Below, piece after piece: positions 1-3,000 of a DNA stretch of 10,383 bases; position 1 is the stretch's first letter, and every line of letters begins with the position of its first letter. Source of the stretch: a virus (Duplodnaviria > Heunggongvirae > Uroviricota > Caudoviricetes); the IMG/VR virus record IMGVR_UViG_2698536484_000002, positions 1-10,383 of that record. One strand, given 5' to 3'. Made by a program: the position numbers.

Positions 1-3000
1 GCCAGCGTTGCGAGTGCTGTACTCATCCGTTTTATACCTCTGAATCAATATCAACCTGATGGTGAGCAATGGTTTCAACCATGTACCGGATGTGTTCTGC
101 CATGCGTTCCTGAAACTCAACATCGTCATCAAACGCACGGGTAATGGCTTTTTTGCTGGCCCCGTGGCGTTGCAAATGATCGATGCATAGCGATTCAAAC
201 AGGTGCTGGGGCAGGCCTTTTTCCATATCGTCTGCCAGTTCTGCCTCTTTCTCTTCACGGGCGATCTGCTGGTAGTGACGCGCCCAGCTCTGAGCCTCAA
301 GACGATCCTGAATGTAATAAGCGTTCATGGCTGAACTCCTGAAATAGCTGTGAAAATATCGCCCGCGAAATGCCGGGCTGATTAGGAAAACAGGAAAGGG
401 GGTTAGTGAATGCTTTTGCTTGATCTCAGTTTCAGCATTAATATCCATTTTTTATAAGCGTCGACGGCTTCACGAAACATCTTTTCATCGCCAATAAAAG
501 TGGCGATAGTGAATTTAGTCTGGATAGCCATAAGTGTTTGATCCATTTTTTGGGACTCCTGGCTGATTAAGTATGTCGATAAGGCGTTTCCATCCGTCAC
601 GTAATTTACGGGTGATTCGTTCAAGTAAAGATTCGGAAGGGCAGCCAGCAACAGGCCACCCTGCAATGGCATATTGCATGGTGTGCTCCTTATTTATACA
701 TAACGAAAAACGCCTCGAGTGAAGCGTTATTGGTATGCGGTAAAGCCGCGCTTAGGCGGCTGATGTTTCTTCTTTCAGGCTTTCGAGATATTTACGTGGG
801 TCGTCGTAACATTGGCATTCGCTGTACCAATCCACCCAGCGATCAGTAAGCCCCATCTCTGATAAATCTTCATCGGTAAGGCTCTCATCCCACATCTCAA
901 GGCCGTTAGCATTGCAGTAATCAGGCTTGATGTTGTTGTCATACTGAAAGGCGTCATAATCAGCCAGTGCGTCCATCAGACGAACACCCTCTTCAACACT
1001 TGCCACTTCTACAATGAACGGCTTCATAGGTACTTGCGGGATATGCCAGACACGTAATTTCATATATCCTCCGTCAAAAAAATTGCCCTCACACTGGAGG
1101 GCAAAGAAGATTTCCAATAATCAGAACAAGTCGGCTCCTGTTTAGTTACGAGCGACATTGCTCCGTGTATTCACTCGTTGGAATGAATACACAGTGCTTA
1201 TTCGTACTAATAAAATACCCAATTTTCTGTTTCTTGGTTGTGTCCAAAGTTATATTCAATATCTGGTGTTGATGTATCAATATTCTTCATACCATCAACA
1301 AGAGTTGATACAACAGCCAAATCTTGTTTGATTCTCATTAAATGGTATTTCTTCCGGCGCAATAAACTTTCAATGGCAAGTTTCTTCGTTGGGAATGCAA
1401 AAGATCTTTCTGCATTTTTTGCTACTTTCTTAATTGCATATCTATTTCTCCTTTGTTTCCATTCCTGTAACCACTGATTTGGTGCTGGTTTAAAATTAAC
1501 AATCCAATGCGCAGGAACCAACCATGCATAATGCTCTGTCTGATGAAAAGCTATATATTGAAGTGCGAATATTTTTATCCCATCTTCTTCAACTGTCGCC
1601 TGGAATCTCCAGAAAACAGGCATTCCATCATGTTCAGTTTCTGATTCAGGAAAAGGTACGCTCCATGATTTTGTCATATCTCACCTCAAATAAGTGGTTT
1701 GCTGCCTAATTTCATTTTCTGGCGACCAACACAAGTCACCTCGCCGTCAGTTGTTTTGATTTCCGGTAGCCTGCCGCGTAAATGGCTACGTTTGGAAGAC
1801 ATACACCAGTTTCTGGTTGCTTATGTCCAAACTCATTCGCGTACACAATGGCCGCTCGCTCCAGATTGCGTCTGTATTCTTTCTGTTGCCAGATCACGTC
1901 CTGTGCCATGAACTTAATTGGCTTAGCGTCTTCTATGCGCTCAGGCGTTTCGTGAGTACCTTTAGCCTGAATCTGCGCTCTGCTTAGAGTAGGGCGGTGT
2001 AATACTTCTGAACTTATTGCTTCTTCGCGGGCCAGTACGCCGTTAGCTAATGCCTTTGCCTTTAAACGCTCACGACGACGAGAACGTGAATTGCCTTTGA
2101 ACTGAGTTCTGCGTGTCATATAGACCTCCTGATGAACTTTGGTGGTGTGGTAGGTGGGAGACCCATTTCGACCTGTTTCGGCCTACTTCAATTCGGCAAT
2201 AGTCCCGCAGGCCTCGCCGCTTTACGTGCGACATATGCCCGTCCATGAACCCTTCACCACACCCCAAAGTTCACTTTGGTTATTGCGCTTTGTCAGCGCC
2301 GTAGATTCATATTCGAATCGTTGTATATTCACCGCCCTGGTGAGTAATGCGTCCTGCTGACGACGATAATAATGAACCAATAGTTCGGCATTATCAAGAA
2401 CTATTGGTACGAATTTTGGTGATTTATTAACTCTACGAAGTATGATTCTGATATATAAGGAAATTTATTTTTGAAAATGTGGCTGATGAAGGTTATGCGG
2501 CAGGGATCATAACTGCATGGTTTAGCGAGTTACATCAATAAATACAATTGGTTATGTTTTTTAGGTGGGCGAACGTGAGGCAAAGAAAACCCGGCGCTGA
2601 GGCCGGGCTAGATTTTAAAGTATTTATCTTTTAGAGATGTAGATGTAAAACTTTTCGCCTTTGAAAATTTTTTGTCATCAGAAGGGCTTATGAACTCATC
2701 TTTTTTGTAGGGAACCGCTAATGCTGCATCACGTCTGCGAGGCAGCTTGCTTACTTCCTCGCGCTTTTTCATGATCAGTTATCCTTTAATAACCTATACA
2801 GTTTTGTAGGGGTACATCCTGAGGATATTGTTAAGTTCGTAGCACGCCTTTTCCGCCCATCATCGTATAAACGAAAACCAGTAGTAGACGAATTTTCTGC
2901 GTCAAAAACTATAGACAGTATAGCGTCCCCAGACTTTTTTTGCCATTCGCATGTGCCGTTAGTTGGTTTCGTCATCTGTAGACGCCAGTCAAGAACGCCA

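What the first reader, a model, noticed from the sequence alone, without database searches (positions are those of the whole stretch)
752..1063. Strongly acidic 103-aa protein in the delayed-early pL operon: candidate anti-defence or host-takeover factor
The protein has roughly 23 Asp/Glu versus 9 Lys/Arg. It sits among known host-modulating genes (gam, kil, cIII) and immediately after an intrinsic terminator, so it would be expressed only under N antitermination. Small acidic early proteins in phages are often DNA mimics or inhibitors of host defence; I do not recognise this one.
Basis: inference. Interest (0 to 1): 0.5.

Follow-up and report, generated by a model that had tools for sequence, protein, structure and literature searches.

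The report
Phage P22 gene 17 homologue
The acidic 103-residue protein is real, but it is the long-known Shiga-toxin-phage copy of phage P22 gene 17, whose only recorded role is letting P22 grow in cells carrying a resident Fels-2 prophage, and how it does that is still unknown.

Summary
An ORF at 752-1063 (minus strand) encodes 103 aa with 23 Asp/Glu and 9 Lys/Arg (pI 4.1). It has a GGAGG ribosome-binding site and an intrinsic terminator just upstream. It lies between N and cIII-kil-gam.

It is not unrecognised. It matches Pfam PF17420 (GP17) over its full length (E 7e-56) and is 88% identical to P22 gp17. It has been annotated as gene 17 in phage H-19B and is 99.5% identical in DNA to phage PA28. 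The P22 record says gene 17 "allows growth on phage Fels2 lysogen", so the anti-defence idea agrees with classical genetics. The database name "superinfection exclusion protein" describes the opposite of that phenotype.

The DNA-mimic idea gained no support. A confident model (pLDDT 92.6) is a compact alpha/beta domain that resembles no solved structure, and only members of its own family among predicted viral structures. The negative charge is conserved across the family.

My inference, untested, is that the target is the AbiU/AIPR abortive-infection protein. Fels-2 carries it in the position where P2 has tin and old.

Verdict: already known gene, mechanism open, low-to-moderate interest.

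The parts
752..1063 (-). Gene 17 homologue: CDS of 103 codons plus stop codon (752-754). Acidic cytoplasmic protein of the PF17420 / phrog_1510 family.
   Evidence: Translation. Composition. Pfam GP17 E 7.3e-56 over residues 1-98 of a 98-position model. phrog_1510 E 5.7e-58. 88% identical to P22-pbi gp17 and 97% to other Stx1a phages. dN/dS 0.125 against P22. No hydrophobic segment: maximum KD19 is 1.02.
1068..1072 (-). Shine-Dalgarno GGAGG, 4 nt before the ATG at 1063.
   Evidence: Read directly from the sequence. Conserved in P22 and H-19B in the alignment.
1076..1104 (-). Intrinsic terminator upstream of gene 17: stem-loop 1104..1083 plus a T7 run.
   Evidence: Terminator scan. MFE -13.2 kcal/mol, z -3.0. 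P22 has a hairpin plus T-run of different sequence at the same place (L001 2459-2479). It lies at the right-hand edge of the swapped cassette (homology with 933W resumes at 1077).
744..761 (.). GC-rich hairpin overlapping the stop codon of gene 17. It aligns with the position where the P22 record annotates terminator tL2. It lies at the left-hand edge of the swapped cassette (homology with 933W ends at 760).
   Evidence: Scan. Fold. P22 annotation 'terminator t L2' at the 3' end of gene 17. Alignment. Homology with 933W ends at 760. In this window only TTT follows the stem on the coding strand, because of a 6-nt gap relative to P22.
709..728 (-). Second terminator-like hairpin between gene 17 and cIII.
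   Evidence: Scan: 8 pairs followed by TTTTTCGTT. It folds together with the 744-761 hairpin at -20.7 kcal/mol, z -3.45.
1207..1677 (-). Upstream neighbour in the same operon: 156-aa protein of unknown function (phrog_1636; L0079 in 933W).
1736..2119 (-). N-type antiterminator, needed to read through the terminators that flank gene 17.
   Evidence: PF25694 E 2e-15 and phrog_271. 99.8% identical DNA to the N region of 933W.
2285..2397 (-). Promoter-like site for leftward early transcription (2397..2369) and the stretch that maps onto the nutL annotated in 933W (2285-2351).
   Evidence: Promoter scan. The 933W record annotates nutL at L005 3250-3316. The window is 99.7% identical and collinear there.
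32..679 (-). Downstream genes of the operon: cIII (515-679), kil (403-546), gam (32-448).
   Evidence: Pfam Lambda_CIII, Lambda_Kil and Gam.

Best explanation
This is the Shiga-toxin-phage orthologue of phage P22 gene 17.

Shown: it is a small, soluble, strongly acidic alpha/beta protein. It is encoded in the leftward early operon between N and cIII and is bracketed by terminator hairpins.

Inferred from that layout: it is made only after N antitermination during lytic growth, not in the lysogen.

By homology with P22, its job is to let the infecting phage grow in a cell whose resident P2-like prophage (Fels-2 type) would otherwise abort the infection. That makes it a counter-defence protein, not an exclusion protein.

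My inference for the mechanism is that it binds and blocks the prophage's abortive-infection effector. The most likely effector is the AbiU/AIPR-family predicted nuclease that Fels-2 carries between its portal and replication genes. The conserved negative surface would occupy a basic, possibly nucleic-acid-binding, site on that protein.
For: Identity:
- Full-length PF17420 and phrog_1510 matches.
- 88-93% identity to gp17 of P22-like phages.
- Same position relative to cIII-kil as in P22 and H-19B.
- DNA 99.5-100% identical to Stx phages PA28 and Stx1a_EH2115.

Role:
- The P22-pbi record note reads 'allows growth on phage Fels2 lysogen'.
- The same statement appears in PMC6486243, citing Semerjian et al. 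1989, and in PMC9409062.

Lytic-phase expression:
- Terminators lie on both sides, no promoter-like site lies between pL and the gene, and N and nutL lie upstream.

Not a lysogeny function:
- The family is also present in virulent Kuttervirus and N4-like phages and in Bacillus phages.

Charge is selected:
- Median net charge is -14 in 84 relatives and -12 in distant representatives. Eight acidic positions are at least 90% acidic.

Candidate target:
- Fels-2 ORF STM2723.1 (565 aa) matches PADLOC AbiU (E 2.7e-112), Pfam AIPR (E 9e-43) and phrog_1841 'Abi' (E 1.6e-150). It lies between portal gene Q and replication gene A.
- AbiU is known from Lactococcus as well as Salmonella, which would fit gp17's presence in phages of both Gram-negative and Gram-positive hosts.
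- A phage protein that counters AbiU has been reported in vibriophages, so such inhibitors exist.
Against: - Nothing has been tested on this orthologue, and E. coli hosts of Stx phages do not carry Fels-2 itself.
- The link to AbiU rests only on an inventory of Fels-2 accessory genes. Other Fels-2 genes of unknown function could be the determinant, for example STM2726 (243 aa, phrog_1353) or STM2733.1.
- One paper attributes the phenotype to Fels-1, not Fels-2. The primary papers (Susskind and Botstein 1978; Semerjian et al. 1989) could not be read.
- Sequence conservation is very high, including 43% identity to Bacillus phage proteins. This could instead point to a conserved host target.
- The model gives no hint of a binding partner.
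Confidence: 0.55

Rival explanations
1. DNA-mimic anti-restriction protein. The acidic surface imitates the DNA backbone and blocks restriction-modification or other DNA-binding defence enzymes, as Ocr, ArdA or Arn do.
For: Net charge is -14 on 103 residues, and the negative charge is conserved across the family. The gene is early and lies next to host-modulating genes. This overlaps with the best explanation if the AbiU-like target is a nuclease.
Confidence: 0.12
2. Host-takeover factor that binds a conserved host protein, for example a nuclease, RNA polymerase or a protease adaptor. The Fels-2 phenotype would then be an indirect consequence.
For: Sequence conservation is unusually high for an accessory phage protein. 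The family has nine invariant residues, 51% mean column identity, and 43% identity between enterobacterial and Bacillus phage members. It occurs in unrelated virulent phage groups.
Against: The phenotype recorded for gene 17 in the sources read here is conditional on a prophage. 933W carries an ea10/ssb-type gene in exactly this slot instead, so the gene is dispensable and interchangeable. There is no similarity to any known host-factor inhibitor.
Confidence: 0.2
3. A genuine superinfection-exclusion protein, as databases name it, which protects the lysogen from other phages.
For: The product name in GenBank, RefSeq, PHROGs and Pfam.
Against: The gene sits behind terminators in the N-dependent early operon, with no promoter-like site of its own. 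It has no membrane segment. It is carried by strictly virulent phages. The P22 phenotype is escape from exclusion, the opposite of the name. No PADLOC defence model matches it.
Confidence: 0.04

Closest known systems
Phage P22 gene 17 protein (Swiss-Prot P14109; Pfam PF17420 GP17; phrog_1510)
   Same: Same family over the full length and the same 103-aa length, with 88% identity. It has the same position in the leftward early operon just before c3/cIII-kil, and the same hairpins before the start and over the stop codon.
   Different: The host is E. coli in a Shiga-toxin phage, not Salmonella. Twelve amino-acid differences cluster in the variable acidic loop at residues 56-77. In this window the neighbours are gam and a 156-aa unknown, not P22's erf/abc and orf87/ral.
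gp17 of Stx phages H-19B and PA28
   Same: Essentially the same gene. DNA identity is 97-99.5%, and it is annotated as protein gp17 or as superinfection exclusion protein.
   Different: Nothing of substance. H-19B differs at four residues.
Lambda Ea10 and the 933W 'Ssb'
   Same: This gene occupies exactly the same slot between the same flanking sequences. Homology with 933W runs up to 760 and resumes at 1077.
   Different: The protein is unrelated. It is a positional alternative, not a homologue.
DNA-mimic anti-restriction proteins (Ocr, ArdA, Arn)
   Same: Small, early and strongly acidic.
   Different: No structural or sequence similarity was detected. The documented phenotype is different.
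Surt, a vibriophage protein reported to counter AbiU (bioRxiv 10.1101/2024.06.14.598830)
   Same: It would have the same target class if the AbiU inference is right.
   Different: No relationship could be shown. Four gp17 motif strings (IPQVP, KPDYCN, KPDY, WIPQ) are absent from the supplementary text held. Several of those files are truncated and the Surt sequence itself was not seen.
Oad2 / P22 EaE-related inhibitor of the P2 OLD nuclease (bioRxiv 10.64898/2026.07.10.737580)
   Same: It is another counter-defence gene of lambdoid leftward operons, aimed at a P2-type prophage defence.
   Different: It is a different protein family with a different target (OLD). gp17 is not mentioned in that work.

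Membership tests
Pfam PF17420 GP17 (P22 gene 17 family) | Full-length match to the family model above the curated cut-off | tested here: met
   186.8 bits against a cut-off of 25, covering residues 1-98 of a 98-position model. phrog_1510 E 5.7e-58.
Pfam PF17420 GP17 (P22 gene 17 family) | Conserved core residues of the family | tested here: met
   All nine invariant columns (L33, Y36, D37, F39, Q40, K46, D48, Y49, W76) and the near-invariant ones are present in the window protein.
Pfam PF17420 GP17 (P22 gene 17 family) | Position in the leftward early operon of lambdoid phages, immediately upstream of cIII/c3 | tested here: met
   Same order as in P22-pbi and H-19B.
Pfam PF17420 GP17 (P22 gene 17 family) | Phenotype: needed for growth on a Fels-2 lysogen | not testable with these tools
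   Known only from the P22 record note and secondary literature. One source says Fels-1.
DNA-mimic anti-restriction proteins | Strong net negative charge | tested here: met
   23 D/E against 9 K/R, pI 4.1. The charge is conserved in the family.
DNA-mimic anti-restriction proteins | Structural resemblance to a known mimic, or a DNA-like array of carboxylates | tested here: not met
DNA-mimic anti-restriction proteins | Binds and inhibits a DNA-binding defence enzyme | not testable with these tools
   Needs biochemistry.
Superinfection-exclusion proteins (SieA/SieB type) | Expressed from the prophage | tested here: not met
   The gene lies in the N-dependent operon behind terminators, with no promoter-like site of its own. 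This is an inference from sequence, not an expression measurement.
Superinfection-exclusion proteins (SieA/SieB type) | Membrane association | tested here: not met
   Maximum 19-residue hydropathy is 1.02 and GRAVY is -0.59.
Known defence-system components (PADLOC) | Match to any defence model | tested here: not met
   No PADLOC hit.

The most novel reading that the evidence does not exclude
gp17 would be a direct inhibitor of AbiU/AIPR-family abortive-infection nucleases, which P2-like prophages such as Fels-2 carry where P2 has tin and old. That would give the first molecular target for a gene defined genetically decades ago. It would also explain why phages as unrelated as P22, Stx phages, Kuttervirus, N4-like phages and Bacillus SP-10 all carry it.
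Probability: 0.2. Interest if true: 0.55.

Novelty: already known. Interest (0 to 1): 0.27.

Why it matters
As a sequence feature it is ordinary. It is an annotated, widespread accessory gene of P22-like and some Shiga-toxin phages. Two points have some value.

First, the name propagated through databases, "superinfection exclusion protein", states the opposite of the recorded phenotype. It could mislead defence-system surveys and safety screens for phage therapy.

Second, the protein's mechanism has not been described in any paper I could search. The finding that Fels-2 carries an AbiU/AIPR gene yields a cheap, decisive experiment. It could identify an inhibitor of a poorly understood abortive-infection family.

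Tried and rejected
- Sequence search of the PDB found nothing meaningful: two pentatricopeptide-repeat proteins at E 0.15 and above.
- Foldseek against PDB found nothing at E <= 0.001. The best matches were ERH proteins at E 0.6.
- BFVD returned only family members.
- NCBIfam and PADLOC gave no hits.
- I examined longer family members for informative fusions. Extra domains were a sub-threshold RNA polymerase alpha CTD-like stretch, Phage_gp49_66 and DUF6166. They are inconsistent with each other and possibly merged gene calls, so I did not use them.
- Neighbourhoods in an N4-like phage and a Kuttervirus showed only small hypothetical genes.
- I considered that gp17 might be the OLD inhibitor 'Oad1'. 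That name belongs to a vibriophage protein, and Oad2 is EaE-related.
- I looked for gp17 motifs in the supplement of the paper that reports the anti-AbiU protein Surt and found none, though several of the files are truncated.
- I inspected the left 16 kb of Fels-1 (of 42.7 kb) for an obvious exclusion gene, given the Fels-1/Fels-2 disagreement. Nothing stood out.
- The primary P22 papers are not in the library.

Full report
**1. The observation**

On the minus strand, an ORF runs from the ATG at 1063 to the stop codon at 752-754 and encodes 103 residues.

A GGAGG lies 4 nt before the ATG. The longer TTG-started reading (to 1117) begins upstream of a terminator and can be dismissed. That terminator is at 1104..1083: an 8-bp stem followed by seven T, at -13.2 kcal/mol and z = -3.0 against shuffles.

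Downstream on the same strand are CIII, Kil and Gam. Upstream are a 156-aa protein of unknown function and an N-type antiterminator.

**2. What the window is**

The DNA around the gene is 100% identical to Stx1a-converting phage Stx1a_EH2115 and 99.5% identical to Escherichia phage PA28.

The region between N and the repressor gene is 99.7% identical to phage 933W. The 933W annotations for nutL and the tM terminator therefore map to window 2285-2351 and 2586-2607. The latter agrees with a terminator-like site at 2609..2588, and a promoter-like site lies at 2397..2369.

The leftward early transcript therefore runs in this order: promoter, nutL, N, the 156-aa ORF, terminator, the gene in question, two more hairpins, cIII, kil, gam.

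**3. What the gene is**

- The protein matches Pfam PF17420 'GP17, superinfection exclusion gene product 17' over the whole model (E 7.3e-56) and phrog_1510 (E 5.7e-58).
- It is 88% identical to gp17 of P22-pbi, 92-93% identical to gp17 of ST64T-type and ST104-type phages (S149), and 97-100% identical to Stx1a phages.
- The H-19B record names it 'protein gp17, similar to bacteriophage P22 protein gp17'. PA28 names it 'superinfection exclusion protein (protein gp17)'.
- It is present in 135 of 5426 complete E. coli genomes. Every listed hit carries that product name.
- dN/dS against P22 is 0.125, so it is under purifying selection.
- A profile search finds 1196 clusters at 50% identity.

**4. 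What is known about its function**

The P22-pbi record annotates gene 17 as 'allows growth on phage Fels2 lysogen'. It also places terminator tL2 at the 3' end of the gene.

Two papers repeat that gp17 is needed for P22 to counteract an exclusion system of the Fels-2 prophage, and one of them cites Semerjian, Malloy and Poteete 1989. One paper says Fels-1, citing Susskind and Botstein 1978. I could not read the primary papers.

So the recorded phenotype is escape from exclusion. The product name 'superinfection exclusion protein' is misleading. Four observations agree with this:
- The gene lies behind terminators in the N-dependent operon, with no promoter-like site of its own.
- It has no membrane segment.
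- It matches no defence model.
- It is carried by strictly virulent phages: Kuttervirus, N4-like phages and Bacillus phage SP-10.

I found no paper in the searchable library that gives a molecular mechanism.

**5. Anatomy**

*Terminators.* The gene is bracketed by hairpins in both this window and P22. The upstream terminator differs in sequence between the two phages but sits at the same place (window 1104..1083; P22 L001 2459-2479). The hairpin over the stop codon is conserved (window 744-761; P22 2803-2820, annotated tL2). The window has a further terminator-like hairpin at 728..709.

*Cassette swap.* Compared with 933W, homology runs to 760 and resumes at 1077. In between, 933W carries an unrelated ea10/ssb-type gene. 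The gene is thus a swappable cassette whose edges lie in or next to the hairpins.

*Structure.* A structure prediction from 84 relatives is confident (pLDDT 92.6, pTM 0.81). It gives a compact domain with strands at 3-8, 16-20, 52-58 and 76-78 and helices at 23-42, 64-70 and 89-102.

*Conserved residues.* Invariant residues are mostly aromatic or polar: L33, Y36, D37, F39, Q40, K46, D48, Y49, W76. Residues 60-75 form a variable acidic loop.

*Charge.* The negative charge is conserved. Median net charge is -14 in close relatives and -12 in distant representatives, and 98% of the latter are at -5 or below.

**6. The DNA-mimic test**

- No PDB sequence relative was found.
- Foldseek against PDB gave nothing at E <= 0.001.
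- The viral structure library returned only family members.

This gives the mimic idea no support. It does not exclude it, because mimics are structurally diverse and I could not analyse the model's surface.

**7. A candidate target (inference)**

I listed the genes of Fels-2. Between portal gene Q and replication gene A lie two accessory ORFs. From my own knowledge of the P2 map, this is where P2 carries tin and old.

The 565-aa STM2723.1 matches PADLOC AbiU over its full length (E 2.7e-112), Pfam AIPR (E 9e-43) and phrog_1841 'Abi' (E 1.6e-150). [quoted passage not shown]

AbiU was first described in Lactococcus and is predicted to resemble a nuclease. A vibriophage protein that counters AbiU has been reported.

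I found no paper linking gp17 to this gene. The link is my inference, and the 243-aa neighbour STM2726 or other Fels-2 genes remain alternatives.

**8. Verdict**

The general direction of the interpretation (counter-defence) agrees with old genetics on the P22 orthologue. The DNA-mimic detail is unsupported, and the gene is already known and annotated.

The remaining interest is twofold: the mechanism has apparently never been worked out, and a specific, cheap experiment against the Fels-2 AbiU-like gene could settle it.

Noticed in passing
window 2775-4685 (minus strand), with terminator 2588-2609: Three genes lie between the repressor gene (4746-5453) and the leftward promoter, in the position where lambda has rexAB. 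They are a DUF3024 protein matching PADLOC candidate PDC-S43 (4344-4685), a 153-aa protein with no family (3815-4276), and a eukaryotic-type protein kinase matching PADLOC mad6 and PD-T4-6 models (2775-3821). They end at the site that 933W annotates as the tM terminator of the repressor transcript. They look like a prophage-expressed defence module.
   Followed up: partly
window 761-1076 compared with L005 (933W) 1662-2041: Gene 17 and the unrelated ea10/ssb-type gene of 933W are exact positional alternatives. The junctions lie within or beside the hairpins at 744-761 and 1083-1104, and the last three codons are shared. This suggests that the terminator hairpins serve as recombination boundaries for cassette exchange.
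   Followed up: partly
window 1207-1677 (minus strand): A 156-aa protein of unknown function (phrog_1636; L0079 in 933W) lies between N and gene 17. It has no Pfam, NCBIfam or PADLOC match.
   Followed up: partly
L004 (Fels-2, NC_010463) 22639-25335: Fels-2 carries an AbiU/AIPR-family gene (STM2723.1) and a 243-aa unknown (STM2726, phrog_1353) between its portal and replication genes. Both are annotated only as hypothetical proteins in the record.
   Followed up: partly
database annotation of window 752-1063 and its relatives: The product name 'superinfection exclusion protein' is propagated to the listed E. coli genome copies and to virulent phages. The recorded P22 phenotype is escape from exclusion. 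Secondary papers also disagree on whether the excluding prophage is Fels-1 or Fels-2.
   Followed up: yes
window 8206-8499 (plus strand): This is another small, visibly acidic ORF (97 aa, TTG start) with no Pfam match, downstream of the replication genes.
   Followed up: no
window 2370-2420 (minus strand): An inverted repeat, ACCAATAGTTC...GAACTATTGGT, surrounds the promoter-like site. It is probably a leftward operator for the repressor.
   Followed up: no
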